From: Ostreococcus lucimarinus
Taxonomy: Eukaryota
Reading direction: 5' to 3' (one strand)
DNA length: 64,000 bases
Assembly (NCBI GenBank): GCA_000092065.1
Contig: CP000593.1
In this document: piece after piece, positions 9,767 to 58,388 of the stretch
Layout of the letters: each line of letters starts with the position of its first letter
Numbering within the stretch: position 1 is the first letter of the stretch
Program-made: the position numbers and the translations under genes
The notes under the pieces: generated by a model
What the model saw: only the letters and a program-made list of their open reading frames with translations
What the model was told of the DNA's origin: nothing
Database searches by the model: none

Positions 9767-9792
9767 AACGCGACGACGCGAAGCACGACGCG

Positions 9793-10221
9793 ATGGCGAC
9801 GCCGCGCGCGATGACGATGACGCGCTCGCGCGCGCTCGTCGCGACGCGCGTGACGACGCGAAGAGGGACGGCGACGACGCGACGCGCGCGCGCGACGCGC
9901 CCGAAGATCGAAAGCCTCGGTGGGTTCGGGCCGAACATCGACGCGAAGGAGATTCAACGACGCATGGCGGAGAAGCAGCGAAAGATCGACGAGAACAAGC
10001 GCAAGGCGCGGGGCGCGAAGGAGGCGTCGACCGCGTTCGGGGCGCGAAGGGAGTTTCAGAGGACGATCTCGAGCGCGAGACCGTCGCGCGCGGGACGGAC
10101 GATGCCGGGGGGCGGCGTCGCCGCGGGGACGACGTCGAGCAAGACGAAGACGACGAGCGGGAAGGGCGGGAAGGGCGGGAAGGAGGAGGCGCCGAAGAAG
10201 AAACTGTTCGGATTGTTTTGA
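9793..10221 (+). CDS. Candidate small basic protein with a T/R-rich presequence (hypothetical)
   Basis: ATG at 9793. The mature part (KIESLGGFGPNIDAKEIQRRMAEKQRKIDENKRKARGAKEAS...KKKLFGLF) is not low-complexity GC junk. Lies upstream of and divergent from the big membrane gene. Confidence 0.3.
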   Translation: MATPRAMTMTRSRALVATRVTTRRGTATTRRARATRPKIESLGGFGPNIDAKEIQRRMAEKQRKIDENKRKARGAKEASTAFGARREFQRTISSARPSRAGRTMPGGGVAAGTTSSKTKTTSGKGGKGGKEEAPKKKLFGLF

Positions 10222-13486: not shown

Positions 13487-13678
13487 CGCGTCCGTCGCCC
13501 CGTCGGTCCTTCGTCGGTCGCCTCGCGTCGCGCCTCGCGTCGCGGCCGACGGTCCGCGTCAGCGCGCGCGTCGCGATCGCCCGGCCGACGCGCGCCGCCG
13601 ACTGCCGCGCGTCGCGCGCGTCCGCGTCCGCGTCGCGCGCGCTGACGCGGCCCGTCGGCCGGCGACCGCGCTGGACGT

Positions 13679-13800
13679 CGCCACACGAGGGTGTTTTTCG
13701 TCCGGGATCGCCATACGAGGGTATTTTTCGTCCGGGATCGCCACACGAGGGTGTTTTTCGTCCGTCCGGGATCGCCATACGAGGGTTGTTTTTCGTCGAG
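13679..13800. repeat. Tandem ~30-bp minisatellite (about 4 copies of CGCCAYACGAGGGTRTTTTTCGTCCGGGAT) in a bidirectional promoter
   Basis: Direct repeats are visible in the sequence. They sit between the divergent DCAF-like gene (minus strand) and Brf1 (plus strand, ATG 13923). The region is relatively T-rich in a GC-rich context. Confidence 0.85.
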
Positions 13801-13922
13801 TCGGCGCGGGACGATTGGGCGACGAGGATTGGGCTCGCGACGCGCGACGACGGGAGAGGACGGCGCGGTGCGCGCGGGACGCGAGGTGCGCGAGGTGCGC
13901 GAGGTGCGCGGTGCGGCGCGCG

Positions 13923-16949: not shown

Positions 16950-19900
16950 CTAAATGTATCCTCGTCGATACGCCTGAATCGCGCCAACCATGATGAACAC
17001 GCTACCTTCACTCCAAACGTACCAGATGGCGATGATGGACCATATGATGGCTCGGCGTATGAAAGGAAGCGCGTCTTGCATCGTCGGCATGGCGGTGATG
17101 GTGTCGCGATAAGACGCGAACAAAATGTCCCTAGCGAAAATGAACAGCATGAGTTGATCCCAACCCACGGTACCGATGACGGATCCCGCGAGAATACCGA
17201 GCACCTTGTATCTAAAAGCGTCGTCCGGCATCGATACGAGTTGGAGCTTCTTGTTCAACCATGGGATGACTTCGAACGCGCACACGAAGGCGCCGATGAC
17301 CATAGACGCCATCGATCCCATGAGAGATTTGTTCTCCATCGCACCGAGCATGAACGGACGTCCTTTGTAGTTGACGAGCATGACACATACTCGCTGCACG
17401 GTGTCAACGAGGAACACGACGGTGTTCAGCAAGCACGGTTCAAAAGGCGGTCCCTGTTCCCAGAAGCTTCGCTGCGTTTCGTTCGCTGCTTTTTTAACCT
17501 CCTGACTCACCACAGCCACCTTTTCAGCAGTAGGGAAAGCAAGCTCTTCCCCAGTCACGGACTTAACAAGATGTACAGCGTAAACCATGGCGGCGAGGTG
17601 GATGACGAGTTGGCCAAAGAGGGACAAAAAGTTTGCCGGGTGGAAAATCGAGCGGAGAGGACGAACCTCGCTCAACGTGTGGACCGGTGTTGCGTACGAA
17701 AACGCAAGCCCGGCTACCGTGAGCGCGGTTCCAGCCGCCATCATTTGACTTTCGCTGTTGCGAACACCGTCCAAGTACAACACGGATAGAGAGTACGCGG
17801 AAATCAGGCAACTCAACATCAACACTTGCTGCATTTGAATGGCAGAGACGAGCGTGCATCGACCTTGACGGATGATATCAGCCGTGGCTTTAATGCTCGG
17901 GGCTCTGCTCGTGAAAGGTGCAGCCATGGAGGCGTCACCAAGCTTAACTTTCGGCACTTCCCCGTCCGTCTCTTCCAACTCTGCAAACACTTGCTGCAGC
18001 GACTGCCCAGTCCCAGCAACCTTTGATCTGGCAGCTTGTCTACGCTTTGCCTCTTGTACTAGTCGTTGCGTCGCCACTTTCATGGCGTTCAATTGAGCCC
18101 ACTTTTCTCCAGCTTCTAAGCGAACCTTCAACTCCTCTTCGTACCATTGAGTTTGAAGTACTTGTAATTCTGCACGGTCTGCCGCCTGCGCGAGCTTTTC
18201 CTTTTCCTTGTCCGCCTTTATCTTTTCGGCTTGCTCCTTGACGCGGGCCATCTTTTCGGCGAAAGTTTCCGTCTTTGTGGCAATTGTAGCGGCACCTTCC
18301 TGCTTCTTCGTGTTTGCACTACCAAATCCGCTCAACAAGGCGACGCCGACGTGCGCTTGCTTGAGTGCGCCGACATCGTTTGCGCCATCGCCGCACATCA
18401 GGGTATGTTTTCCTTGCGTCTTCAAACGTTTTAGAACTCTCTCCTTGTCGTCAGGAGACATACGAGCGTAAATGCTAATTTGATCCAGGTTATCCCAAAG
18501 TGTACCGGAAGCCGTGAGAGCGACGTTCAGGCTTTTACCGGTGACGCACAAACTGTACTCTTTCGCAAGTTCGCGAATGGATGTTTCTTCGTATGGGAAA
18601 ACTTTCATAGGCTTCATGTGCTCATCAACTCGAGCGCTCTGCCACTCCAATTTATCCAACTGGTCACGTGCTAATATCAACGCTCCATCGAGACCACCTC
18701 GAGCGATCCCAACTTCGTTACCGACGTGTAACGCCGTGAGCGTTGCGTCGCCTGTCGCCATCATCACATTATTAGAACTCGCCTGTAGTGCGTGAATGAT
18801 CTCAGCAGAGTCAGCGCGGACCTTGCAAGCGAACGCAAAAAATCCATCAAACACGAGATCTGATTCCGCTTCATCCCGAGTCAAAGGTGTGGACTGGGAG
18901 CCAACTCGAGCGCTCTCTTCGGCGCTCAATTCCTTGTGCGCCAGAGCAATCACTCTCATACCTTGCTCGGCCAAGCCGCGGTACGCGGCATCATAACCTT
19001 GCGGAACGTTCTTCAACAGTGATTTGATCATCTCTGGAGAACCCTTCACCAAAGACCATCGACTAACGGTTGAATTACTCGAGACGTCTGCAATGACGCT
19101 CATTCGCTGCAATGCTGACGCAAAGTGATTGCGCACCAAAATCTTCACAGAAGTGTTCTCAGCGCCAGTCCACGATCGAGTAATCTTATCATCAAGTTTT
19201 GGCGTTCCTAAGTGAGTGGCGGGATCGTACTTCCATTTGATTCCCAAAAGAGCAGCCTTTTCGAGAGGGTCGCCAAACGTTTTTCCGTCGATTTCAAGCA
19301 GTGCGTGACAACCACCGATGACAATGGATACGTTCTTGTCCGCTTCTACGGGTTGTTTAAGCGGAGCGCCCTTGGTCAAATCACTTAGGACTCCCTCGGC
19401 AACGAGACGGTCGCTCGTGATGGTGCCAGTCTTGTCGAATAAGCAGCAGTCCACCTTACCGGCGACGGGAACGCGGAACGGCTCTGTGCAGTAAACGGAA
19501 GCTTTCACCAAAGCAATGAGAGCCGTGTTTACCGCCATCGCTGTTTGCATCGGAAGATCCGGAGGCACAACACTTGTGACGATCATAATGCATCGCAGGA
19601 TGAGTTCATACTGACTCCGTTTCCCATCTGCAATGCCTTTGACGTAAACGTTGTAACTCGCCGCTAAAGCAAAGATGAGGAGAATGAAGAGTAAAACGAG
19701 CGTTTCCTTTGTGTCTCCAGTGACTTGCTCACTGCTAAATTCCATCATACGCATCAATTTACCTTGCGTAGACGCGAAACCCGTTTGAAGGACGTAGCAC
19801 AAGCATCCGCCATCCGGCGTGGTCACTTGGAGCGCCGACGATTCGCTTTCTGTCTTTGAGGTGTGTTGCATCAACGTCGTGCCGCTGTAGAGAATGTGTA

Positions 19901-21215
19901 CTTTGTGCAAGCCATTCATATCAAGTCTTTCATCCTTCGACACCTCCGGGTTGATGTGCTCTTTCATTTGCGGGACACTTTCGCCGGTCAAGCTCGCTTC
20001 GTTGACGACAGCTGATCCGGCAAGGAGCACGCAGTCGCAAGGAACCGGGACTTCTTCGCCTCCGTTACGCTTAATGGAAATGATATCGCCAGGGTACAGC
20101 TCTTCAGTTGAGTGATCTTCCCATACACCACCACGTCGCACAAGGATGCGCCCAGCTTTTTGACCCATACCCCGCAAAGTGGCGATGTTTCTCTGCCGCG
20201 AAAACGCCGTAGTGCCTTCAAAGATCAACAAGCTCAACGCGCTGAACAGGGCGTACTTCCAGTACTCATCCATGAGCCAAAGGAGTACGGTAAAGATTTG
20301 GAAAACAGTCACCGGACCCGTGAGTTGCTCTTTGTACAAGTTCCAAAACGTGGGAATGTTGACTTGGAGCGCGTTGTCGCCGTATCGTTCATGACTGTGG
20401 TGTACCTCTTCTCCGGAAAGACCTCTCGACTTGACGTAATGCGAAAGCGGTAAATCTTTTGGCGTCTCGATTTCGCGAAGTTCGCCTTGACCTTTGCCGC
20501 GAGCTTCGTCCCACTCAATCTCCACGTACTCGTACCGCTGGCGCTGAAACACGCACCAAAGCATTGTTCGTAAACTACCATCCGCGTCAAACACTCGTAA
20601 GCGCGACACCGGCACGATTTCCGGTTTCCCTTGATGCGCGTGCGGAGTAATGATAAAGTAAGACCCCTCGGTCACGCGGTTGATGGGTTTGTACTGCACG
20701 AAGCACCGAATACGAACGCTCCAATGTTGCGCGAAGAGCAACAACGCGTGCGCCGTCGCGATGGACGCGAACGCCAAAACCGTGGGAAAGTCCGGCAACC
20801 ATCGCGCGGGCAGCGTCGGCGGTACTTCATACTTGACCTCTTCATCCACCGTGGCCCCAGCGTCGTCCTCGCTCGCTTCCGGCTCCCCCGCGTCCCACGC
20901 CCCGCTCGCGTCGTCCCCGCCGTCCCCGCTCGTCCACTCGTCTCGCACTCGCCCTTCGCCAACCCGCGTCTTCTCCACCCCGACCGCATCGAACACCGCG
21001 GGATCGTATCCAGCGTCGATGTGATGCGCCAGCGCCGCCCTGTACGGGTTTCCAGACGTTTCGTAGCACTTTTTCAGCGAGATCGCGTAGAGCACGAAGA
21101 ACGGCAGATGAATCAATCCGACCGCGTTCGCGACGCGGTACCGCCGCGTTCGCGGTCGCGCGTCGTGCACGTGCGCGGGCACGCTCACGCGCAGGTTTCC
21201 ATCGCGCGGCGCCAT
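16950..21215 (-). CDS. P5A-type P-type ATPase (Spf1/ATP13A1 family, ER)
   Basis: 1421 aa. DKTGTIT phosphorylation site. MCGDGANDVGALKQAHVGVAL hinge. PPDLPMQTAMAVN P5A signature. Long P5A-specific insertion with coiled-coil. ATG verified at 21215. Confidence 0.95.
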   Translation of the reverse strand: MAPRDGNLRVSVPAHVHDARPRTRRYRVANAVGLIHLPFFVLYAISLKKCYETSGNPYRAALAHHIDAGYDPAVFDAVGVEKTRVGEGRVRDEWTSGDGGDDASGAWDAGEPEASEDDAGATVDEEVKYEVPPTLPARWLPDFPTVLAFASIATAHALLLFAQHWSVRIRCFVQYKPINRVTEGSYFIITPHAHQGKPEIVPVSRLRVFDADGSLRTMLWCVFQRQRYEYVEIEWDEARGKGQGELREIETPKDLPLSHYVKSRGLSGEEVHHSHERYGDNALQVNIPTFWNLYKEQLTGPVTVFQIFTVLLWLMDEYWKYALFSALSLLIFEGTTAFSRQRNIATLRGMGQKAGRILVRRGGVWEDHSTEELYPGDIISIKRNGGEEVPVPCDCVLLAGSAVVNEASLTGESVPQMKEHINPEVSKDERLDMNGLHKVHILYSGTTLMQHTSKTESESSALQVTTPDGGCLCYVLQTGFASTQGKLMRMMEFSSEQVTGDTKETLVLLFILLIFALAASYNVYVKGIADGKRSQYELILRCIMIVTSVVPPDLPMQTAMAVNTALIALVKASVYCTEPFRVPVAGKVDCCLFDKTGTITSDRLVAEGVLSDLTKGAPLKQPVEADKNVSIVIGGCHALLEIDGKTFGDPLEKAALLGIKWKYDPATHLGTPKLDDKITRSWTGAENTSVKILVRNHFASALQRMSVIADVSSNSTVSRWSLVKGSPEMIKSLLKNVPQGYDAAYRGLAEQGMRVIALAHKELSAEESARVGSQSTPLTRDEAESDLVFDGFFAFACKVRADSAEIIHALQASSNNVMMATGDATLTALHVGNEVGIARGGLDGALILARDQLDKLEWQSARVDEHMKPMKVFPYEETSIRELAKEYSLCVTGKSLNVALTASGTLWDNLDQISIYARMSPDDKERVLKRLKTQGKHTLMCGDGANDVGALKQAHVGVALLSGFGSANTKKQEGAATIATKTETFAEKMARVKEQAEKIKADKEKEKLAQAADRAELQVLQTQWYEEELKVRLEAGEKWAQLNAMKVATQRLVQEAKRRQAARSKVAGTGQSLQQVFAELEETDGEVPKVKLGDASMAAPFTSRAPSIKATADIIRQGRCTLVSAIQMQQVLMLSCLISAYSLSVLYLDGVRNSESQMMAAGTALTVAGLAFSYATPVHTLSEVRPLRSIFHPANFLSLFGQLVIHLAAMVYAVHLVKSVTGEELAFPTAEKVAVVSQEVKKAANETQRSFWEQGPPFEPCLLNTVVFLVDTVQRVCVMLVNYKGRPFMLGAMENKSLMGSMASMVIGAFVCAFEVIPWLNKKLQLVSMPDDAFRYKVLGILAGSVIGTVGWDQLMLFIFARDILFASYRDTITAMPTMQDALPFIRRAIIWSIIAIWYVWSEGSVFIMVGAIQAYRRGYI

Positions 21216-21492
21216 TCGTTGGCGCGCGAACGACGCGTCGATGTGACGCCTTCGCTGCTCCGCGACCTTTCGTCACAGCGCGACGGCGCCGCGCGCGAGA
21301 CGACGCGCGATGGCGTCTCTCGCGATTCGAGACGCCGTGCGCGCGCACGGCGCGCGCGCGCGACTCGCGCGCGCGCTCGCGCGACGGCGCGCGGGCGCGA
21401 CGACGGGCGCGCGCGGTGCGACGACGACGACAGCGACGGCGACGACGACGCGCGGTGCGCGCGATGGCGTGGACGCGCGACGGTGCCGAGGG

Positions 21493-22926
21493 ATGAACGA
21501 CGCGGCGAAGGCGGCGTTGGATGCGTCGGCGCGCGCGCGCGCGAGCGCGAGCGCGAGCGCGAGCGCGGGGCCGGTGGTGTACTGGTGCGACCGGGACAGG
21601 CGGTGCGCGAATAACGACGCGCTGGGACGAGCGATGGAATTGGCGAACGAAAGGCGCGTCCCGCTCGTCGTGGCGATGCACGTGGGGACAGATTTGAGCG
21701 GGAGCGGCATCGGAGGCGCGCGCAGGGCGGTGTTCGCGCTGAAGGGGTTGAAGGAATTGGATGAGGATTTGCGAGCGCGAGGAGTGTCGACGCGAACGAC
21801 GACGGGAAGCGACGTCGCGGGAGGAATCGTGGAGACGTGCGAGACGCTGAATGCGAGTGCGGTCGTGTGTGACTTTTCGCCGTTGCGAGAGGGGCGTGCG
21901 GCGAGGGAAGCGGTGGCGCGTGTGGTGGAGGTTCCGGTGATTGAAGTGGACGCGCACAACGTCGTGCCGGCGTGGGTGACGAGCGATAAGCAAGAGTACG
22001 CGGCGAGAACGATTCGGCCGAAGATTCATCGAAATCTCGGGGATTTTCTCACCGCACCGCAAGCGTTAGATGATCTCATCGCCGCGCCGGACGCGTTGAC
22101 GCCAAGTGAGACGGATTGGGACGCATTGATTGACACCGCGCGCGTCAAGGGCGCGCACGTCCCAGAGGTTGACTGGATCAAACCGGGTGAACGTGCCGCC
22201 TTAGCCGCGCTGCTCGATCCGAATGTCGACTCTTTCCTCCCACAGCGATTGACACTCTACGGGGAGCGAAACAAGCCGACGTCGCCGCGCGCCGTGTCTC
22301 GCCTCTCGCCGTACTTGAATCACGGCCAGCTGTCGCCACGTCGCGCCGCGTGGGAAGCTGCGCAACTTCGGGGAATCGTAGACGACGAGGCGATCGATAG
22401 CTACTTGGAAGAGCTCATCGTTCGAAGGGAATTATCAGACAACTATTGTCTCTTCAATCCGTATTACGACTCGTTGCAAGGAGCGAGTCAATGGGCGCAA
22501 GATTCACTGAGTTTGCACGCCCGCGACGTTCGCGAGTACGTGTACGATTACAAAACACTCGAGCGTGGCAACACGCACGACGAGCTTTGGAACGCGGCTC
22601 AGAAAGAATTATACCATCTCGGACGAATGCATGGGTTCATGAGAATGTACTGGGCGAAGAAGATTCTTGAGTGGACGCCGTCGCCGGAGGTGGCCCTGCA
22701 GACGGCGATTCAACTCAACGACGCTTACGCGTTAGACGGTCTCGATCCCAACGGCTACGTTGGTTGTATGTGGAGCATTGCCGGTGTGCACGATCAAGGA
22801 TGGAAAGAGCGCGCGGTGTTCGGTAAAGTGCGGTATATGAATTACGCCGGTTGCAAGAGAAAGTTTCAAATCCAAGATTACGTAGCGGCGGTCGACGCTG
22901 AGATAAGCGGAATAGGTCGCAAATAG
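21493..22926 (+). CDS. Class II CPD DNA photolyase
   Basis: The N-terminal alpha/beta domain (VVYWCDRDRRCANNDAL...RVPLVVAMHV) and the class II FAD-binding C-terminus (WAQDSLSLHARDVREYVYDYKTLERGNTHDELWNAAQKELYHLGRMHGFMRMYWAKKILEWT...YVGCMWSIAGVHDQGWKERAVFGKVRYMNY) match. ATG at 21493. Confidence 0.9.
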   Translation: MNDAAKAALDASARARASASASASAGPVVYWCDRDRRCANNDALGRAMELANERRVPLVVAMHVGTDLSGSGIGGARRAVFALKGLKELDEDLRARGVSTRTTTGSDVAGGIVETCETLNASAVVCDFSPLREGRAAREAVARVVEVPVIEVDAHNVVPAWVTSDKQEYAARTIRPKIHRNLGDFLTAPQALDDLIAAPDALTPSETDWDALIDTARVKGAHVPEVDWIKPGERAALAALLDPNVDSFLPQRLTLYGERNKPTSPRAVSRLSPYLNHGQLSPRRAAWEAAQLRGIVDDEAIDSYLEELIVRRELSDNYCLFNPYYDSLQGASQWAQDSLSLHARDVREYVYDYKTLERGNTHDELWNAAQKELYHLGRMHGFMRMYWAKKILEWTPSPEVALQTAIQLNDAYALDGLDPNGYVGCMWSIAGVHDQGWKERAVFGKVRYMNYAGCKRKFQIQDYVAAVDAEISGIGRK

Positions 22927-35338: not shown

Positions 35339-35592
35339 TCACAGCGCAGTCACGCCTAGTAGCGCCTCCGATGTGTGGGTGTCGTAATAAGTAGCTCTGT
35401 ATACTCGACGTGTGAATAGCGCCGCCCCGCACACGCGCGCGCGCACCGTCATCGCGGACGATGTCTCGCGTCCACGCGTGGCCGAAGCACACAGTGTCGT
35501 CATGCGCGTCTCCACGCGCGCGCGCGTCGACGAGCGCGCGCGCGCGGGCGTCGACGAGCGCGAAGGCGTCGACGAGCTCAAAGGACGACGAA

Positions 35593-36411
35593 ATGACTCC
35601 CGAGCGCGCGTTTCGCAGGATGTGGACCAAGGCGGACAAGTATCACACGCACGCGGTGTCGGGAACGTTATATACCGCGCTAGGGGCGGGAATGATGGGC
35701 CAGTGGGCGCTGGACGACGCGACGGCGCTGACGAGCGGTGGCGGCGCGACTCCGGGGCTGGACCCCGCGTTGACCGGCGTCGCGCTCACGCTGGCGACGG
35801 TGTGCGCGTTGAGTGGACTACCACTTTCAAAGAGCCGCGGTTGGCGGAAAACCGAGCTCAGCGCGCGATCGATCGCGTTTCAGTTCGTGTTGACGTGGGA
35901 GTGCGTTCGCTTCGCGGGCGTCGTCGATCCCGCGCTCAGAGTCCCCGGATTGGACACCCTTTGGTTGGCGTGGTTGCCATTCGTGTGGCAAACGATGACG
36001 TCGGCATACATCGTCCTGTTCACGAAGGACGACAAGCGCGCCGCGCTCGCGGTGTGGCTCGGCACGCTCGGTTTCGGAGCTCAAATTTTCCCGGCGCAGC
36101 GCGTCCTCGACGTCGCCTCCGTCGCCGCGCTCGAAGCCGCGAGACCCGGTCTCCCCACGATATGGGCTCACGGCACGTTTGGTTTGATTTGGCTCCTGAA
36201 CTGGTCCACGTTCGGCGCCTCACTTCGCGCGCGCGACGTCGTCTCGTCGGACGCCGACTACGTCCGCGCCTTTTTGACGCGTCCCAGCGCGTTTTGGTTC
36301 GCCTTATTCGCCCTCGACCTCGCCGTCGCGCGTCCGTTCGCGTCGATCGGCGATTATCTCGCCTCCGCCCTCGGCTCCGACGTCGCCGCCGCCCTCGCCT
36401 CGAGCGCGTGA
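35593..36411 (+). CDS. Hypothetical multi-pass membrane protein
   Basis: ATG at 35593 (MTPERAFRRMWTKADKYH...). Five or six hydrophobic helices. Coding-like composition. Overlapping ORF 35412..36545 is the alternative frame and is rejected. Confidence 0.4.
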   Translation: MTPERAFRRMWTKADKYHTHAVSGTLYTALGAGMMGQWALDDATALTSGGGATPGLDPALTGVALTLATVCALSGLPLSKSRGWRKTELSARSIAFQFVLTWECVRFAGVVDPALRVPGLDTLWLAWLPFVWQTMTSAYIVLFTKDDKRAALAVWLGTLGFGAQIFPAQRVLDVASVAALEAARPGLPTIWAHGTFGLIWLLNWSTFGASLRARDVVSSDADYVRAFLTRPSAFWFALFALDLAVARPFASIGDYLASALGSDVAAALASSA

Positions 36412-36584
36412 GTCCGCCTTCCCGTCCCGGCCCGGCGTCGCCGAGCGACCGACCGCCCACCGCGCCGCCGTCGGCTCGAAGATATTTTCAACGGGACGCA
36501 TCATTGCGGGAGATCCCTTTTGCATACCCTTCAACACGCGTGTAATACGTACATTTATCACACGTCTGCGAATATCCCGCGTTT

Positions 36585-36607
36585 CGCTTTTTCGCGGCGA
36601 AAAAGCG
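36585..36607. promoter_or_regulatory. Perfect 23-bp palindrome CGCTTTTTCGCGGCGAAAAAGCG ~230 bp upstream of the TOC1-like gene
   Basis: 11-bp arms around a central G, verified base by base. Adjacent GAATATCC (36570-36577) contains the AATATC core of the plant evening element. Confidence 0.5.
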
Positions 36608-36835
36608 TCGTCGAAAAGATTCGCTCGAGCCCCCCCGCGCCGGGTCGCGACTCGTCGATCGCGCGTCGCGCGCGCCCCGCATTCTCAGGCACACGACGCG
36701 CGCGACGATCGACGCGGCGGCGCGATCGACGCGCGGCGCGGCGCGGCGCGGCGCGGCGCGAAAACCAGCGTCCGTCGCGTCGTCCGGACCGCGCTCGACG
36801 ACGCGACGGAGGCGCGGCGACGGGCGCGAGCGACG

Positions 36836-38590
36836 ATGCGGGACGACGACGCGATGGGCGCGACGCGACTCGCGGACGCGCTCGCGGACGCGGTCGAGGA
36901 CGCGAGCGCGAGAAACGCGGGCGGGGGGGGGGGACGCGCGGGACGCGCGCGCGCGAAGACGAATGGGAAGAGCGCGCGACCGAGGTTGAACGACGCGGGC
37001 GCGCACTTGAGAGTGCTGCTGGCGACGGACGACGCGCACACGCGAAAGATGGTGGAATCGATGCTGCGCGAGCTCGGGGTGGAGGTGGTGGCGGCGACGA
37101 ATGGGAACGAAGTCTTGGACGTCTTGCGGGGGGCGCCGAAGAGCGCGAGGGAGGACACGTCGGTGGATATGATTTTGCTCGACGTGTTGATGCCCGAACT
37201 CGACGGGGAAGTCGAACTGGTGGAGGCGTGTAAGGCGAACGAAACCCTGCGCGGGGTGCCGATCGTCATCATGTCCACCGTGGACGAGCGCAAGGCGTGC
37301 AAGACGCGATTTGAAAATTCGGGCGCCGCCGGTTTCTTGACGAAACCGGTGAACCGCATCGAGTTGAAGGAGAGCTTGGCGCACACGCGGGCGTTAAAAA
37401 GCCACGAAAGTGGTAGCGTTGAAGGTGAGGGTTCGGGTTCGGGGAACTGCATGGATCCAAACGACAACGTCGGCGGGAGCGCAAAGTCGTCGCTCACCAA
37501 GCTCACGAGCAGGGAAAAAGTCGCGGGGGGCTCGGGCGGTGGGCAAAACGATTCGGGGAGCGATAATCAATACAACGAAAAACCGCTCACGAGACGCGCC
37601 GAAGCCGAAGCGATCGATCGATGGGCCAGTCGCGAGGGTGGGTCGGGAGACTGCGGCTCGGGCGGCTCGGGTCAAGGCACGGGAAGCGGTAGCGGCTCCC
37701 ACGAAGGCTCGGGGTCGGGCCAGCGTGATCCAAACGACGGCGAAAAGTTCCGCGGCTTGAGCGTGCAACTCATCAAGGCGCACGGTGGGGCAACGACTAT
37801 GCTCGAACTCTCTTTACCAGAGCACGCGTCTGAGCACGTCGTCGTTCGACGATCAAACTCGCGTTCGGCGTTCAAGGGGTTTCAAAACTACCTTAAGAAC
37901 GAAAACAAGGATACCGCGGTGCAAATGATGAGCGTTGACTTGACGCAGCAGCATCACTCGTTTTATGAAGCGTCTTCCATGATGCCACCGTCAGATTTCG
38001 CCAAATTTTACGGACCGATTATGCCGAAGATGGAAATGCCCGTGCCGCCGCCGATGCCGCCGTACGCCGATATGAACCAATTCTCCGCCGCCGCCGCCGC
38101 CGCCGCCGCGGTGGCGGCGTCTTCGGTCGACGCTTCAGTGATGGATCAATCGTATATGGCGAATCCGTTTTTCAACGTTTTACAAACTGCGGCCGATCAC
38201 ACCCAGCAGACGAGCTCGAGCCAAGCCGCCGAGCATCGCGCCGCGGCGATTCGACGCTTTTTGAAGAAGCGCAAGGAAAGGAACTTCGAAAAGAAAGTTC
38301 TTTACCCTTCGCGACAAAAGCTCTCGGAATCCCGTCCTCGCGTTCGCGGACAGTTCACTCGAAACAACGATGAAACGACGACGACGACGACGACGACTGA
38401 AAACGTCTCAAACGGATCGGACAACAAACCAAAGTCGAACGAAACCAACGCGAGCGAGGCGAACAAGGTCGGCGAAGTCGAAGGCAAGGGAGTGGACGAG
38501 TACGGTCACGGCTCGAACGAAGGTTCGAACGAAGGTTCGAAAGAAGGCTCCCGAAGTTCTTCCGGCGCCGAAGGCGAAGGCTCCAAGTAA
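36836..38590 (+). CDS. TOC1/PRR-like clock-type protein: N-terminal response-regulator receiver domain plus C-terminal CCT motif
   Basis: REC domain: LRVLLATDDAHTRKMV...DMILLDVLMPELDG...FLTKP. CCT: EHRAAAIRRFLKKRKERNFEKKVLYPSRQKLSESRPRVRGQFTR (cf. CONSTANS/TOC1 CCT R.RY.EKRK.R.F.K.IRY..RK..A..RPR.KGRF). Low-complexity Gly/Ser, poly-Ala and poly-Thr linkers. Confidence 0.85.
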   Translation: MRDDDAMGATRLADALADAVEDASARNAGGGGGRAGRARAKTNGKSARPRLNDAGAHLRVLLATDDAHTRKMVESMLRELGVEVVAATNGNEVLDVLRGAPKSAREDTSVDMILLDVLMPELDGEVELVEACKANETLRGVPIVIMSTVDERKACKTRFENSGAAGFLTKPVNRIELKESLAHTRALKSHESGSVEGEGSGSGNCMDPNDNVGGSAKSSLTKLTSREKVAGGSGGGQNDSGSDNQYNEKPLTRRAEAEAIDRWASREGGSGDCGSGGSGQGTGSGSGSHEGSGSGQRDPNDGEKFRGLSVQLIKAHGGATTMLELSLPEHASEHVVVRRSNSRSAFKGFQNYLKNENKDTAVQMMSVDLTQQHHSFYEASSMMPPSDFAKFYGPIMPKMEMPVPPPMPPYADMNQFSAAAAAAAAVAASSVDASVMDQSYMANPFFNVLQTAADHTQQTSSSQAAEHRAAAIRRFLKKRKERNFEKKVLYPSRQKLSESRPRVRGQFTRNNDETTTTTTTTENVSNGSDNKPKSNETNASEANKVGEVEGKGVDEYGHGSNEGSNEGSKEGSRSSSGAEGEGSK

Positions 38591-43705: not shown

Positions 43706-43865
43706 CGCGCGCCTCGTCCTCGCCGTCGCCCCGTCGCTCGCCCGACCGCGCGTCGCGTCGCGTTCGTCGTCGTCGCCGCTCGAGCGTCGTCGAAGCCGCC
43801 GCACGCCGCGCTCTGCGGCGTCGATTCGATTCCATTCCAATCCGCTCGCCGCATTCGTCGTCGCG

Positions 43866-45977
43866 ATGCGTCGCGCGCGTCGCGCGCGGCGCCTCGCGCT
43901 CGGCGCCGCGCTGACCGCGCTCGCGCGCGTCGCGCTCGCGCGCGCCGACCGCGCGTCGATCGCCGTCGTGGGGAGCGTGAACGCCGACGTCATCGCGCGC
44001 GTCGGAACATCGGTCCCGCGCCGCGGAGAAACGCGCGCGGCGACGGCGGCGCGCGTCGAGCGCGCGTGCGGAGGGAAGGGAGCGAATCAAGCGGTCGCGG
44101 CGTCGCGATTGACGTGCGAGCGCGGCGGGAAGGCGGCGTTCGTGGGACGATTCGGGGAGGACGAGGCGGGGACGACGCTGCGACGCGCGCTGCGGCGAGA
44201 GACGGATGTGTCCGGGAGCGTCACGATGGCGCGAGGGAGCGGAATCGAGACGGGAATGGGGTTCGTGATGCTGACGGACGATGGATCGCCGAGCGCGGTG
44301 GTCGTGGGGGGGGCGAACGCGCTCGGATGGAACGCGGACGACGAGGCGCTGGCGAGCGAGTTTCGCGAGGCGCTGCGAGGCGCGAAGACGGTGATGCTGC
44401 AGCGGGAGGTGCCGGAACGCGTGAACGTGATAGCGGCGACGGTTGCGAGGGAAATCGGTGTGCGAACGATCGTGCTGGACGCGGGAGGCTCGTTTCACGC
44501 GGCGGATGAGGCGTTGTTGGCGCTCGTGGATTACGTCGCGCCGAACGAGAGCGAACTCGCGGGAATGGCGGGAATGCGCGTGGAGGAGGTTTCTTCTGGG
44601 GACGAAGCGGTCGTTAAGGCGGCGAGAATCGTCGCAGGAACGTCGCGCGTCGCCGTTCTGTGCACGCTGGGGAGTCGAGGATCGTTGCTCGTGAGAGGCG
44701 AAGACGTCACGAGAGTCGAATCGATGGAACTTCCGGCCGGCGCCAAAGAAGTGGACGCCACCGCGGCTGGTGATGCGTTTCGCGCCGCGTTCGCGGTGGC
44801 GATGGCTGAAAATAAAAACGAGCGCGACGCCATGAAGTTCGCCAGCGCCGCGGGGGCTTTGGCGGTGACGAAGTTGGGTGCGATGCCAAGCCTTCCATTT
44901 CGGAGCGACGTGGATGAATTTCTTGGCGTTTCAGATCCGTGCCGAACGTCCCCTATCTCGTCGTCTTCGTCGTCCAGTGAGGCGGCGATCGAGGCACTTC
45001 GATTTGCCAGTAGATTGAATAGCATGAAATCTCGCGCAGACTTATTCACGGATGCCGAACCGGACGTTCCGGAAGTCTTCAACCTCATAAAGCGCATGGG
45101 ACGCGTTCAGGGCGTGCATTCGGTGTTTCTCAACTACCCCGAACATTTCATCGGACCAGACGGCAACGAGCTCGCGGCAGTGGAATTGCGAGACAAGATT
45201 CTTGCCGCGAAGTTGCGCCCTGGCGCCGTATGCGTGCGATTTCCCGAGGAGCCGTTTCGATTGGGCGCGTTCTCGAATCCCGATGGCGTGATTCGCGAAC
45301 ACGCGGCGACTTTGGCACGCAAGGCGTGCGCGACTGCGACCGCACTCGACGCAGACGAAGTCGTCATATGGCCTCGCTACGATGGATACGATTACAATCT
45401 CCAAGCGGATTACGCCACGGCGTGGGAGGACATGATTGTCGGTTACAAAGCAGTGGCCTCGAGCGAAGAGTGTCGCTCGCTCAAGTTGAGCGTCGAATTC
45501 AAGCCGACGGACGAAAAGAGCCGTTTCAGCTTCATCCCCACCACAGGTGCCGCACTCCTACTCGTCGACGCCGTGGGCGAGCCCAACTTCGGCCTGACAC
45601 TGGACGTCGGCCACGCGCTCGCCGCGGGCGAGAATCCAGCCCAGTCCATCGCGATGGCGGCTTCGAGAAACGCTCTGTTCGGCGTCCAACTCGGCGACGG
45701 TCACACCCGTCTCGGCGCCGAAGACGGTTTGATGTTCGCCTCCGTCCATCCTCACGCCGCCATGGAATTAGTCCGCGCGCTACGTCGCATATCCTACGCC
45801 GGCGTGCTCTACTTTGACACCTTCCCTCTCAACGAAGATCCGGTGGCGGAAGCCGAGCGAAACGCCCGCGTCTTCCGCGACTTCTACGCCCGCATCGTCG
45901 ACGTCGAGGTCGAAATCGAAGATGCCATCGCCAGTCGAGACGCCATTCGAGCTCTCGACGCCGCATCACGGATGTGA
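43866..45977 (+). CDS. Fusion protein: N-terminal pfkB/ribokinase-family sugar kinase plus C-terminal xylose-isomerase-like TIM-barrel (sugar isomerase/epimerase) domain
   Basis: Kinase: AVVGSVNADV...GGKGANQAVAA...DATAAGDAFRAAFAVAM (ribokinase DTxGAGD). Ser-rich linker. TIM barrel: LSVEFKPTDEKSRF, LDVGHALAAGENP, GVQLGDGHTRLGAEDGL. Confidence 0.78.
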   Translation: MRRARRARRLALGAALTALARVALARADRASIAVVGSVNADVIARVGTSVPRRGETRAATAARVERACGGKGANQAVAASRLTCERGGKAAFVGRFGEDEAGTTLRRALRRETDVSGSVTMARGSGIETGMGFVMLTDDGSPSAVVVGGANALGWNADDEALASEFREALRGAKTVMLQREVPERVNVIAATVAREIGVRTIVLDAGGSFHAADEALLALVDYVAPNESELAGMAGMRVEEVSSGDEAVVKAARIVAGTSRVAVLCTLGSRGSLLVRGEDVTRVESMELPAGAKEVDATAAGDAFRAAFAVAMAENKNERDAMKFASAAGALAVTKLGAMPSLPFRSDVDEFLGVSDPCRTSPISSSSSSSEAAIEALRFASRLNSMKSRADLFTDAEPDVPEVFNLIKRMGRVQGVHSVFLNYPEHFIGPDGNELAAVELRDKILAAKLRPGAVCVRFPEEPFRLGAFSNPDGVIREHAATLARKACATATALDADEVVIWPRYDGYDYNLQADYATAWEDMIVGYKAVASSEECRSLKLSVEFKPTDEKSRFSFIPTTGAALLLVDAVGEPNFGLTLDVGHALAAGENPAQSIAMAASRNALFGVQLGDGHTRLGAEDGLMFASVHPHAAMELVRALRRISYAGVLYFDTFPLNEDPVAEAERNARVFRDFYARIVDVEVEIEDAIASRDAIRALDAASRM

Positions 45978-56461: not shown

Positions 56462-56493
<32 letters not shown>

Positions 56494-56604
56494 CGCGCGC
56501 GCGCGCGCGACGCGCGTCGCTCGACGACCGCCCTTTCGCGCGCGTCGCCTCGCGCGCGCGCGCGTCGGCGCCGCCGCGGCCGCGCGTCCGCGCGCGCGCG
56601 ACAT
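55702..56604 (-). CDS. mTERF-domain protein (organellar transcription termination factor family) with presequence and a poly-Asp tract
   Basis: Repeated mTERF-like modules (GMNVGALVGRCTEVATCDIARATANLLTLRGAFKVGKISAMVMDCPKLLMCDDLEDRIRRTQACITRIW). 11 Asp encoded by (GTC)11 at 56463-56493. The start is ambiguous; candidates are the ATGs complementary to 56604 or 56454. Confidence 0.55.
56463..56493. repeat. (GTC)n/(GAC)n microsatellite encoding poly-Asp
   Basis: gtcgtcgtc... with about 10-11 units. Confidence 0.9.
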
Positions 56605-56677
56605 CGTGCGGCGTCGCGCTTCGCGGCGTCGCACTTCGCGGCGCGCGCGCGGACGATCGACGCGCGCGACGCGCGCC

Positions 56678-58388
56678 ATGGCGAGCGACGCGAGCGAGGG
56701 CGCGAGCGACGCGCCGGGCGCGCCGTCGGCGTACCCCACGAACGCGTCGGCGTACGAGCTGCTCGAGGAGATCGGGCACGGCGTGAGCGCGACGGTGCGC
56801 GCGAGGCGAACGACGCGACGCGACGCGACGCGACGCGACGACGACGCGCGAGACGACGCGCGCGCGATGACGCGAGACGGACGCGGGACTGACGGGCGAG
56901 CGATGGTGTCGGCGCGCGACGCAGGTGTGGCGAGCGCGATGCGCGACGAACGACGAAGTCGTCGCGGTGAAGGTTTTGGATCTCGAGGAACACGAGCCGG
57001 AACACCTGGACGAGATCCGACGCGAGGCGCAGACGATGAGCATGCTGAGTCATCCGAATTTGGTGAAATATTATAGCTCGTTCGTGAACGAGGCGTCGCT
57101 TTGGGTGGTGATGCCGTATCTCGCGGGGGGATCGGCGCTGAATTTGATGAAGTGGTCGCATCCGGGAGGTTTCGAGGAACCCGTCATCGCGTGCATCGTC
57201 AAGGCGGCGCTCAAGGCGCTGGATTACTTTCATCGTAATGGGAATATTCATCGAGACATCAAGGCTGGGAACATTTTGGTGGATGAGAACGGGGCGGTGA
57301 AGCTGGCCGATTTCGGCGTGAGCGCTTCGTGTTGGGGTTCGGGAGGCCGACCGCGGTCGCACCAGACTTTTGTCGGCACGCCGTGCTGGATGGCGCCAGA
57401 GGTGATGGAGCAAGAGAACGGGTACGATTTTCACGCCGACATTTGGTCGCTCGGGATCACGGTGCTGGAGTTGTGCCACGGGCACGCGCCGTTTTCCAAG
57501 TTTCCGCCGATGAAGGTGCTCTTGATGACGCTTCAAAACCCAGCGCCGACGCTCGAAGAGCAACCCGAAGACGGTCGGCATTTCTCTCGCGCCCTTCGCG
57601 AGTTCGTCAGTCTTTGCCTGCAAAAGGATCCGTCCAAGCGCCCGCCGGCGAGCAAGCTTTTGGAGCACAAATTTTTGAAGGAGGCGAAGAAAGCCGATTG
57701 GCTCGCGAAGACGTTGCTCGAAAACATCCCTTCTCTGGGCGATCGCACGCGCATGCTCGCCGAACGCGAGGCGAAACGGCGCGCGGAATCGAACGCCGTG
57801 GGTGAGGCGCAAGCGGAAGCCGCTTCGAACGAAGCTTACAAGCACGGGGTGTCTAATTGGAATTTTGACGTCGACGAATTGAAGGCGCAGGCGGCGGCGA
57901 TGGACGATCCCGCGGTGGCTGAATCCAACGCCATCGCCGCGGCGAACGCGCTCGAAAACATGCACATGGGCGAAAAGAGGAGCATCGAGAAGAAAGGCCG
58001 ATTCGAAATCATCACCGAAGACGCGCCCGAGTCGTCGGCGACGTCGCAAACGGTGCAGCGACGAGGACGGTTTGACATCATCGAGGACAACCAGCGCGGC
58101 AGCCGAAGCACGTCTCCCACGCCCGCGAGCTCACCCGCGCCGGGCGTTTCGCGCACAAAGAAGGCGGTACAAAAAGGTCGATTCACCGTGCACTCCGAAG
58201 CCGGCGCGGACGACATGGGCGTGGATCTACGCTACTTTTCCGAAGTCGCGCAATCCGCCGCCTCCGTCTCCGCCGCCCTCCGCGATCTCTACGCCCAAGC
58301 CCAAGCCCAAGCGACCGCCATCGCCGAGCTTCGCGACGAGAACGCCCGTCTCCGCGCCCGCGTCGCCGAGCTCTCCGAACGCGCCTAG
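56678..58388 (+). CDS. OSR1/SPAK/Fray-like STE20 Ser/Thr kinase, two exons: join(56678..56794,56925..58388)
   Basis: Exon 1 supplies MASD...YELLEEIGHGVSAT (glycine loop). Exon 2 starts with GTG: V-WRARCATNDEVVAVKVLDL..., then HRDIKAGNILVDENGAVKLADFGVS, TFVGTPCWMAPEV, and is collinear with OSR1 through FPPMKVLLMTLQN and CLQKDPSKRP. Phase-0 130-nt intron. Confidence 0.87.
56795..56924 (+). mobile_element. Introner-like element forming the OSR1-like kinase intron (130 nt)
   Basis: GTGCGCGCGAGGCGAACGACGCGACGCGACGCGACGCGACGCGACGACGACGCGCGAGACGACGCGCGCGCGATGACGCGAGACGGACGCGGGACTGACGGGCGAGCGATGGTGTCGGCGCGCGACGCAG. Looks like an internally deleted version of the UGDH copy. Confidence 0.85.

What the first reader, a model, noticed from the sequence alone, without database searches (positions are those of the whole stretch)
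36836..38590. TOC1/PRR-like gene: receiver domain that keeps the phospho-acceptor Asp, fused to a CCT motif
REC+CCT architecture is the hallmark of plant and green-algal circadian pseudo-response regulators. In land-plant PRRs the phospho-accepting Asp is replaced by Glu. Here the receiver reads ...VLLATDDAHT... / ...DMILLDVLMPELDG... / ...FLTKP..., so the acidic pocket (DD), the Asp at the end of beta3 and the conserved Lys all appear intact. That suggests a bona fide phospho-accepting receiver. The gene has an unusually long upstream region for this locus (~290 bp, 36546-36835), containing a (GCGGC)n tract.
Basis: partly seen in the sequence, partly recalled or inferred. Interest (0 to 1): 0.65.

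Follow-up and report, generated by a model that had tools for sequence, protein, structure and literature searches.

The report
Ostreococcus lucimarinus TOC1 clock gene
This is the already catalogued TOC1 circadian-clock gene of the marine picoalga Ostreococcus lucimarinus. Its retained phospho-acceptor aspartate was first reported for the O. tauri orthologue in 2009, so the reading is correct but not new.

Summary
The ORF at 36836-38590 (+) is real. It encodes 584 aa with a Pfam receiver domain (E 2e-15) and a CCT motif (E 5e-15). Residues 7-584 are 100% identical to two O. lucimarinus CCE9901 'predicted protein' entries. The protein is 73% identical to, and syntenic with, O. tauri TOC1. Its upstream region holds the only Evening Element in the 64 kb window, at the position published for O. 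lucimarinus TOC1.

Alignment to E. coli CheY and to the Sln1 receiver puts D116 at the acceptor position (CheY D57). S147 matches T87, and K170-P171 match K109-P110.

Two corrections apply:
- The 'DD' is one residue out of register. CheY D13 is D65, but CheY D12 is T64.

The (GCGCG)6 tract is ordinary for this genome.

Asp retention in Ostreococcus TOC1, and the proposed LOV-HK/Rhod-HK to HPT to TOC1 phosphorelay, have been in the literature since 2009. A 2025 paper explicitly treats O. lucimarinus TOC1. Phosphotransfer to any algal TOC1 remains untested. Verdict: correct observation, already known, low interest.

The parts
36412..36835 (+). Upstream intergenic region (promoter plus 5' UTR) of TOC1, 424 bp. 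It runs from the stop of the upstream 316-aa ORF to the first ATG.
   Evidence: The upstream gene's frame ends at 36411 (GC3 0.82; gene calls on L001-L004). The TOC1 frame is open back to 36278 but holds no start codon and translates to Arg/Ala/Ser-rich junk.
36480..36488 (-). Evening Element AAAATATCT, the CCA1-binding site in Ostreococcus TOC1 promoters.
   Evidence: It is the only match in 64 kb, against 0.12 expected by chance. It lies 374 nt upstream of the second ATG (36854), which fits the published O. lucimarinus position of -375(-) (PMC12704426). It is conserved in four environmental contigs. As a check on the method, the O. tauri locus L005 has its EE at exactly the published -268(+).
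36731..36760 (.). (GCGCG)6 perfect pentanucleotide repeat in the upstream region.
   Evidence: TRF gives period 5, 6.0 copies, 100% matches. Similar CG-rich repeats are common across the window.
36836..38590 (+). TOC1 coding sequence, 584 aa plus stop, with no intron needed. The alternative start at 36854 gives the 578-aa NCBI model.
37013..37378 (+). Receiver (REC) domain, residues 60-181.
   Evidence: Pfam PF00072, E 2.2e-15, covering profile positions 1-110 of 111. Best solved relatives are the Sln1 receiver 8phx (E 4e-13) and CheY-like proteins. The AF2 model gives beta1 59-63, alpha1 67-79, beta3 112-116 and beta4 143-147.
37025..37033 (+). Beta1-alpha1 loop T64-D65-D66. D65 corresponds to CheY D13 (Mg2+ ligand). 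T64 occupies the CheY D12 position. D66 occupies the CheY F14 position.
   Evidence: MAFFT alignment with CheY. HMMER alignments to 8phx and 3heb. AF2 secondary structure. Codons ACG GAC GAC.
37181..37183 (+). Codon GAC for D116, the putative phospho-acceptor (CheY D57 position, end of beta3).
37274..37276 (+). Codon for S147, at the CheY T87 position (end of beta4).
37343..37348 (+). Codons for K170-P171, at the CheY K109-P110 positions.
37802..37816 (+). LELSL motif (residues 323-327). It sits in the conserved middle block FRGLSVQLIKAHGGATTMLELSLP...VRRSNSRSAF.
   Evidence: Conserved in 11 of the 12 Mamiellales homologues read and aligned with Riccia PRR 'TLELSLKR...VVRQSGGSAFSRY'.
38237..38365 (+). 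CCT motif, residues 468-510.
   Evidence: Pfam PF06203, E 4.6e-15. Aligns to the Hd1 and CONSTANS CCT domains of solved structures 7c9o and 7cvo.

Best explanation
The feature is the TOC1 gene of Ostreococcus lucimarinus, the single PRR-family clock gene of this picoalga and the positional orthologue of O. tauri TOC1.

Shown here:
- An intron-free 584-aa protein with an N-terminal receiver domain and a C-terminal CCT motif.
- The receiver keeps the acceptor Asp (D116), one Mg2+-binding Asp (D65), the Ser at the end of beta4 (S147) and the Lys-Pro of beta5 (K170-P171).
- A conserved, mostly disordered middle region carries an LELSL motif.
- The 424-bp upstream region carries the only Evening Element in the window.

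Inferred from the O. tauri literature, not tested here:
- CCA1 represses the gene through the Evening Element, and TOC1 protein acts on CCA1 through its CCT domain. Together they form the core feedback loop.
[quoted passage not shown] Phosphorylation then alters TOC1 stability or activity.

I put about 0.95 on the identity and about 0.5 on real in vivo phosphorylation of D116.
For: Identity:
- Residues 7-584 are 100% identical to XP_001420962.1 / XP_001422932.1 of O. lucimarinus CCE9901.
- The protein is 73% identical over 542 aa to the full O. tauri ORF.
- Gene order is conserved with O. tauri on both sides: NSUN2 methyltransferase and nucleoside transporter upstream, acyl-CoA dehydrogenase, PfkB and a protein kinase downstream.

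Domains: REC E 2.2e-15 and CCT E 4.6e-15.

Catalytic residues:
- D116, S147, K170 and P171 fall in the columns of CheY D57, T87, K109 and P110. The CheY sequence was verified against PDB entry 1djm.
- The same register appears in the HMMER alignments to the Sln1 and 3heb receivers.
- D116 lies at the end of predicted beta3.
- The acceptor Asp is present in all 10 Mamiellales homologues aligned and in 13 of the 15 O. lucimarinus cluster members read; the other two are N-terminally truncated and lack this region.

Promoter: a single Evening Element at the published position.

Literature:
- O. tauri TOC1 keeps the acceptor Asp and is proposed to be a true response regulator downstream of LOV-HK, Rhod-HK and HPT (PMC3130137; PMC4343026; PMC12704426).
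- Moss PpPRR2, which has a full DDK motif, accepts phosphate in vitro (PMC3041508).
Against: - No phosphotransfer to any algal TOC1 has been reported (PMC3041508). The 2015 and 2025 papers still call it a hypothesis.
- The first residue of the acidic triad (CheY D12) is Thr here and in O. tauri. All 17 typical receiver domains of the bacterial hybrid kinases read have two acids at these positions, as do the deeper-branching homologues P0011 and P0012 and the Riccia PRRs.
- Moss PpPRR1 keeps the acceptor Asp but has a diverged pocket, and it did not accept phosphate.
- The O. lucimarinus CCT has L489 where all other homologues read have Arg. This position aligns with an NF-Y-contacting Arg of Hd1.
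- No expression data could be examined.
Confidence: 0.9

Rival explanations
1. The receiver keeps Asp116 only as an ancestral or structural residue and is not phosphorylated in vivo. The domain would then work as in Arabidopsis PRRs, as a dimerisation and protein-interaction module, with light input arriving by other routes such as regulated degradation or Ser/Thr phosphorylation.
For: - T64 replaces the first acid of the Asp12/Asp13/Asp57 triad that chelates Mg2+ (triad as described in PMC1974792).
- All 17 typical bacterial hybrid-kinase receivers read are acid-acid at these positions.
- PpPRR1 keeps the acceptor Asp but shows no phosphotransfer.
- No phosphotransfer assay exists for algal TOC1.
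Against: - D65 (the CheY D13 equivalent, the essential Mg2+ ligand according to PMC1974792), D116, S147 and K170-P171 are all kept across the Mamiellales homologues aligned. This fits selection on catalysis.
- An extra Asp (D66) sits next to the pocket.
- LOV-HK, Rhod-HK and HPT are retained in all Mamiellales genomes surveyed (PMC12704426).
- A phosphorelay model fits O. tauri clock data (PMC4343026).
Confidence: 0.35
2. The O. lucimarinus copy is a functionally weakened TOC1 whose CCT substitutions reduce DNA or partner binding. This would be a milder version of the truncated, non-functional TOC1 of the tropical strain RCC809.
For: - L489, P491 and S497 replace the R, A/E and A found in every other homologue read. 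The three substitutions are present in all 15 cluster members read.
- L489 aligns with Hd1 R359, which is reported to hydrogen-bond the NF-YB/YC dimer.
- The CCT profile score is 55.8 bits, against 59.4-61.3 bits in three orthologues.
Against: - The CCT is full length and well above the Pfam cut-off.
- Nearly all other conserved basic and aromatic CCT residues are kept.
- The gene, its Evening Element and its receiver are conserved in many environmental contigs.
- PMC12704426 groups O. lucimarinus with the species that keep a functional oscillator.
Confidence: 0.1
3. It is a generic REC-CCT response regulator that is not part of the clock. 'TOC1' would then be a misnomer, with the algal proteins forming a sister group to the whole PRR family.
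For: - Holm et al. place the O. tauri protein outside the land-plant TOC1/PRR clades (PMC3017809).
- The best land-plant hits are PRR-like proteins with an LELSL motif, not TOC1-clade proteins.
Against: - Clock function of the O. tauri orthologue is reported as experimentally shown (Corellou 2009, as cited).
- Orthology and synteny with that gene are shown here.
- The Evening Element lies at the published position.
Confidence: 0.04

Closest known systems
Ostreococcus tauri TOC1 (APRR-like protein; Corellou et al. 2009)
   Same: - Positional orthologue: 73% identity and the same flanking genes.
- Same REC, conserved middle block and CCT layout.
- Same T-D-D loop, acceptor Asp, Ser and Lys-Pro.
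- Evening Element in the promoter.
   Different: - The Evening Element is on the other strand and further from the start codon: about -375(-) against -268(+).
- Three lineage-specific CCT substitutions (L489, P491, S497).
- The N-terminal 50 residues are not conserved.
- O. lucimarinus is reported to carry two identical copies (PMC12704426), of which this window holds one.
Arabidopsis TOC1/PRR1 and PRR3/5/7/9 (angiosperm pseudo-response regulators)
   Same: Receiver-like domain at the N-terminus and CCT at the C-terminus. Role in a feedback loop with CCA1/LHY through the Evening Element.
   Different: - Angiosperm PRRs have Glu at the acceptor position and a diverged first Asp. AtTOC1 did not accept phosphate in vitro (PMC3041508). 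The plant-like PRR P0031 shows E and N at these positions.
- The algal protein has Asp at both.
- It also carries an LELSL motif. The review read places the repression motif of that region in PRR9/7/5 (PMC9486492); that AtTOC1 lacks it is from my own memory.
Physcomitrium patens PpPRR2/3/4 (moss PRRs with a complete DDK motif)
   Same: REC plus CCT proteins that keep the acceptor Asp. PpPRR2 accepts phosphate from ArcB in vitro, which shows that a PRR-family receiver can be a true receiver.
   Different: They belong to the PRR7/3 clade of land plants. No assay exists for the algal protein. The residue at the CheY D12 position was not compared for the moss proteins.
CheY / Sln1-type canonical receiver domains
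   Same: (beta-alpha)5 receiver profile match over the whole Pfam model, with the acceptor Asp, Ser/Thr and Lys-Pro in place.
   Different: - Thr replaces the first acidic residue of the triad.
- A roughly 10-residue insertion lies before beta3 and one extra residue after the MPxxDG loop.
- The output domain is a eukaryotic CCT motif.
CONSTANS / Hd1 CCT domains (PDB 7cvo, 7c9o)
   Same: The 43-residue CCT aligns end to end with them. The basic helix and the RPRxxGxF DNA-recognition segment are kept.
   Different: Leu replaces the Arg of the 'IRY' segment (Hd1 R359). There are no B-box domains. Whether it binds with an NF-Y dimer is unknown.

Membership tests
Response regulator receiver domain (PF00072, CheY-like) | Profile match above the curated threshold, covering the whole domain | tested here: met
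   57.2 bits against a cut-off of 30.2, covering profile positions 1-110 of 111. There are 146 solved receiver chains at E<=1e-3.
Response regulator receiver domain (PF00072, CheY-like) | Phospho-acceptor Asp at the C-terminal end of beta3 (CheY D57) | tested here: met
   D116 falls in the CheY D57 column, aligns with the Sln1 and 3heb acceptor Asp, and is the last residue of predicted beta3, 112-116.
Response regulator receiver domain (PF00072, CheY-like) | Two acidic residues in the beta1-alpha1 loop (CheY D12 and D13) that hold Mg2+ | tested here: inconclusive
   D65 matches D13. The D12 position is T64, and D66 follows at the F14 position. All 17 typical bacterial hybrid-kinase receivers read have acid-acid here. 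Whether D66 can substitute cannot be decided from sequence.
Response regulator receiver domain (PF00072, CheY-like) | Ser/Thr at the end of beta4 (CheY T87) and Lys-Pro at the end of beta5 (CheY K109-P110) | tested here: met
   S147 and K170-P171. S147, K170 and P171 are invariant among 20 homologues.
Response regulator receiver domain (PF00072, CheY-like) | Actual Mg2+-dependent phosphotransfer from a phospho-His donor | not testable with these tools
   This needs biochemistry. The literature reports none for algal TOC1.
PRR / TOC1 family (receiver-like domain plus CCT) | N-terminal receiver-like domain and C-terminal CCT motif in one polypeptide | tested here: met
   REC at residues 60-181 and CCT at residues 468-510 in one uninterrupted ORF.
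PRR / TOC1 family (receiver-like domain plus CCT) | CCT motif passes a profile search | tested here: met
   PF06203 at 55.8 bits against a cut-off of 28.4. Aligns to the Hd1 and CO CCT domains in the PDB.
Pseudo-receiver in the strict angiosperm sense | Acceptor Asp replaced by Glu, and no phosphotransfer | tested here: not met
   Asp is kept (D116), as in O. tauri TOC1, the moss PpPRRs and the Riccia PRRs. The protein belongs to the PRR family by architecture and descent, but it is not a 'pseudo' receiver by this criterion.
Mamiellales TOC1 orthologue group | Orthology with the functionally studied O. tauri TOC1 (sequence and gene order) | tested here: met
   73% identity over 542 aa. Flanking genes are shared on both sides. 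The best named database hit is O. tauri APRR-like protein.
Mamiellales TOC1 orthologue group | Evening Element (AAAATATCT) in the promoter | tested here: met
   One match in 64 kb, against 0.12 expected, at 36480-36488 on the minus strand. It agrees with the published -375(-).
Mamiellales TOC1 orthologue group | Rhythmic, dusk-phased expression and a clock phenotype | not testable with these tools
   No expression data are available here. It is reported for O. tauri only.

The most novel reading that the evidence does not exclude
The core Ostreococcus clade (O. tauri, O. lucimarinus and relatives) has replaced the first acid of the receiver's Mg2+-binding triad with Thr. Deeper-branching homologues and liverwort PRRs keep Glu there. 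O. lucimarinus has in addition replaced a conserved NF-Y-contacting Arg in its CCT.

If these changes matter, Ostreococcus TOC1 would be an intermediate on the road from true response regulator to pseudo-receiver, with weakened or kinetically altered phosphorylation. The long-standing 'TOC1 is a functional response regulator' assumption in O. tauri clock models would then need revision.
Probability: 0.15. Interest if true: 0.35.

Novelty: already known. Interest (0 to 1): 0.12.

Why it matters
The gene is the core evening component of the simplest known green-lineage circadian oscillator. Whether its receiver is really phosphorylated is an open and testable question about how light enters that clock, and about when PRRs became 'pseudo' regulators. 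That question has been posed explicitly in the literature since 2009, and this window adds no new kind of evidence to it. The only small additions are the Thr at the CheY D12 position and the O. lucimarinus-specific CCT substitutions. Both would be worth including in any mutational test.

Tried and rejected
- The full text of Corellou et al. 2009 could not be obtained by DOI or by PMC id. A receiver-domain review I tried to fetch by a PMC id recalled from memory was not held either. Their content is cited only through papers that quote them.
- AF2 on the full-length protein with a 20-sequence alignment gave mean pLDDT 48. Only residues 61-100 and parts of the CCT are confident. I used its secondary structure only to check the beta1 and beta3 register and ran no fold search.
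The database-derived PRR P0031 serves as the Glu-type comparator.
- I considered whether the photolyase-family ORF 14 kb upstream was a cryptochrome clustered with TOC1. It is a class II CPD photolyase.
- I considered whether the (GCGCG)6 tract is a special regulatory element. Such repeats are ubiquitous in the window.
- I considered whether the open frame upstream of the ATG (back to 36278) is an N-terminal extension. It has no start codon and a junk composition. The 690-aa database form P0001 is a prokaryote-style gene call on a strain with an indel.
- Antisense ORFs under the gene have no family match.
- The window has no Rfam family and no tRNA.
- There is no second TOC1 copy in the window.
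Full report
**The observation.**
The ORF at 36836-38590 on the plus strand is present exactly as described and encodes 584 residues. A Pfam scan finds a receiver domain over residues 60-181 (57.2 bits, cut-off 30.2, E 2.2e-15, covering 110 of 111 profile positions). It also finds a CCT motif over residues 468-510 (55.8 bits, cut-off 28.4, E 4.6e-15).

**Whose gene it is.**
The exact 584-aa sequence is in the public protein collection. Its 90% cluster contains XP_001420962.1 and XP_001422932.1, both 'predicted protein [Ostreococcus lucimarinus CCE9901]'. Residues 7-584 of the window protein are 100% identical to that 578-aa entry. The window is therefore O. lucimarinus, or an indistinguishable strain, and the only uncertainty in the gene model is which of two ATGs is used (36836 or 36854).

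The best named hit elsewhere is 'APRR-like protein [Ostreococcus tauri]'. That entry is a truncated 474-aa model. The O. tauri locus itself (L005, GCA_002158475.1) carries an uninterrupted 580-aa ORF that is 73% identical to the window protein over 542 residues.

Gene order is conserved on both sides. The run is MaoC dehydratase, an unknown gene, DUF3007, nucleoside transporter, NSUN2-type methyltransferase, an unknown gene of about 270 aa, then REC+CCT. Further downstream come acyl-CoA dehydrogenase, PfkB/AP_endonuc_2 and a protein kinase. This is positional orthology with the gene known in the literature as O. tauri TOC1.

**The receiver active site.**
I aligned the receiver with E. coli CheY, after verifying the CheY sequence as identical to PDB entry 1djm. 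The alignment also included ten Mamiellales homologues, two liverwort PRR-like proteins and one Glu-type plant PRR.

| CheY residue | Window residue | Note |
|---|---|---|
| D57 | D116 (codon GAC, 37181-37183) | acceptor position |
| T87 | S147 | end of beta4 |
| Y106 | F167 | |
| K109-P110 | K170-P171 | end of beta5 |
| D13 | D65 | Mg2+ ligand |
| D12 | T64 | not acidic |
| F14 | D66 | extra Asp |

HMMER alignments to the solved Sln1 receiver (8phx) and to 3heb give the same register. An AlphaFold model is confident only in the first half of the receiver. It puts D116 as the last residue of beta3 (112-116) and S147 as the last residue of beta4 (143-147). The first refutation condition, a non-Asp residue at the acceptor position, is therefore not met either.

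One correction is needed. The ungapped register places CheY D12 on T64, D13 on D65 and F14 on D66. The model agrees, with beta1 at 59-63, the loop at 64-66 and alpha1 starting at 67. The essential Mg2+ ligand (the D13 equivalent) is present, but the first member of the Asp12/Asp13/Asp57 triad (PMC1974792) is Thr.

The same Thr is found in O. tauri and three other Ostreococcus-like sequences. The more distant homologues P0011 and P0012 and the Riccia PRRs have Glu there. All 17 typical receivers of the bacterial hybrid kinases I read are acid-acid at these two positions. In the plant two-component nomenclature, 'DDK' means the D13, D57 and K109 equivalents, and by that definition the motif is complete.

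**The upstream region.**
The real upstream gene is the 35461-36411 frame. Its GC3 is 0.82, against 0.60 for the spurious ORF, and it is called as a gene on four environmental contigs. The spacer is therefore 424 bp, the longest of the 15 spacers between called genes within 10 kb either side.

The spacer contains the only Evening Element (AAAATATCT) in the 64 kb, at 36480-36488 on the minus strand, against 0.12 expected by chance. It lies 374 nt before the second ATG, which matches the position -375(-) tabulated for O. lucimarinus TOC1 in PMC12704426. As a control, the O. tauri locus has its single element at exactly the published -268(+). The element is conserved in four environmental O. lucimarinus-type contigs.

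The (GCGCG)6 tract is unremarkable. TRF reports 73 CG-rich arrays at score 55 or more across the window.

**What is already known.**
- PMC3041508 (2010/11) says O. tauri TOC1 and Chlamydomonas PRR2 share 'the entire DDK motif' and notes that no phosphotransfer assay exists. It also shows that moss PpPRR2 accepts phosphate in vitro while PpPRR1 does not.
- PMC4343026 (2015) builds a clock model in which LOV-HK and Rhod-HK signal through HPT to TOC1.
- PMC12704426 (2025) repeats the point and surveys TOC1 across Mamiellales. It reports two 100% identical O. lucimarinus copies, and a truncated, non-functional RCC809 gene.

The moss proteins and the Riccia proteins in my alignment have Asp.

**Most likely mechanism.**
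Shown here are the architecture, the catalytic residues, the orthology and the Evening Element. The following is inferred from the O. tauri literature:
- CCA1 represses the gene through the Evening Element.
- TOC1 acts back on CCA1 through its CCT domain.
- Phosphorylation of D116 through HPT conveys blue and green light information and changes TOC1 stability or activity.

I put about 0.95 on the identity and about 0.5 on real in vivo phosphorylation. The main rival is that the domain behaves as a pseudo-receiver despite the Asp (about 0.35). The Thr at the D12 position and the PpPRR1 precedent favour that rival. Conservation of D65, D116, S147 and K170-P171, and retention of both kinases and HPT in all Mamiellales, count against it.

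**Other strands and surroundings.**
- Antisense ORFs under the gene and the spurious upstream ORF have no family match.
- No Rfam family or tRNA occurs in the window.
- The downstream neighbour, convergent on the minus strand, is an RNase P Rpp40 subunit.
- Only one TOC1 copy is in the window.
- No other two-component gene was seen among the neighbours scanned.

**Verdict.**
However, this is the known TOC1 gene of a sequenced species, and the 'retained Asp' point has been in print since 2009. Novelty is 'already known' and interest is low. The small residue-level observations listed under 'noticed in passing' would be worth folding into the phosphotransfer and mutagenesis experiments the field still lacks.

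Noticed in passing
window 37025-37033 (T64-D65-D66): The residue at the CheY D12 position of the acidic triad is Thr in O. lucimarinus, O. tauri and three related sequences. It is Glu in the deeper-branching homologues P0011 and P0012 and in the Riccia PRRs. All 17 typical bacterial hybrid-kinase receivers read have two acids there. None of the papers I read mentions it.
   Followed up: partly
window 38300-38326 (L489, P491, S497 in the CCT): The O. lucimarinus TOC1 CCT reads VLYPS...LSES where every other Mamiellales and plant homologue read has VRY[A/E]S...LA.. . L489 aligns with Hd1 R359, reported to hydrogen-bond NF-YB/YC. The substitutions are present in all 15 cluster members read. The Pfam CCT score is about 4-5 bits lower than in three orthologues.
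   Followed up: partly
window 37802-37816 and 37847-37873 (LELSL; RRSNSRSAF): A conserved LELSL(P) motif is followed by an RRSxSRSAF block in the otherwise disordered middle region. It aligns with the Riccia PRR block 'TLELSLKR...VVRQSGGSAFSRY'. This resembles the EAR-like repression motif region attributed to PRR5/7/9 rather than to Arabidopsis TOC1. It hints at co-repressor recruitment, although the O. tauri literature describes TOC1 as an activator of CCA1.
   Followed up: partly
P0010 (553 aa, cluster of 132 members) and P0005: A close Ostreococcus homologue has the receiver but no detectable CCT, which fits the truncated RCC809 TOC1 described in PMC12704426. Its relative P0005 has a full CCT but reads SRLRVRGQF, with Leu for the conserved Pro.
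   Followed up: partly
window 21310-22926 (+): A photolyase-family gene lies about 14 kb upstream of TOC1. It is a class II CPD photolyase (rice 3umv, E 2e-133), a DNA-repair enzyme rather than a cryptochrome, so it is not a clock-gene cluster.
   Followed up: yes
window 16950-21215 (-): A 1421-aa P-type (P5A-like) ATPase ORF fills the lowest-GC stretch of the window (GC 0.51 at 18001-20000, against about 0.60 elsewhere).
   Followed up: no
whole window, e.g. 9676-9899, 13394-13910, 21339-21567, 43859-43968, 56462-56883: CG-rich tandem repeats of the CGTCG, GCGCG and CGCGA types cluster near gene starts and in spacers across the whole window (73 TRF rows at score 55 or more).
   Followed up: no
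window 36278-36835, and P0001 (690 aa): The TOC1 reading frame stays open for 186 codons upstream of the ATG, but this stretch has no ATG, GTG or TTG. In some environmental strains an indel brings a TTG at the 36520 equivalent into frame, so prokaryote-style gene callers report a spurious 690-aa product.
   Followed up: yes
(XP_001420962.1 and XP_001422932.1): O. lucimarinus carries two TOC1 copies with identical protein sequences (100% identical CDS according to PMC12704426). Only one is in this window. Which chromosome this window comes from, and how large the duplicated segment is, were not determined.
   Followed up: no
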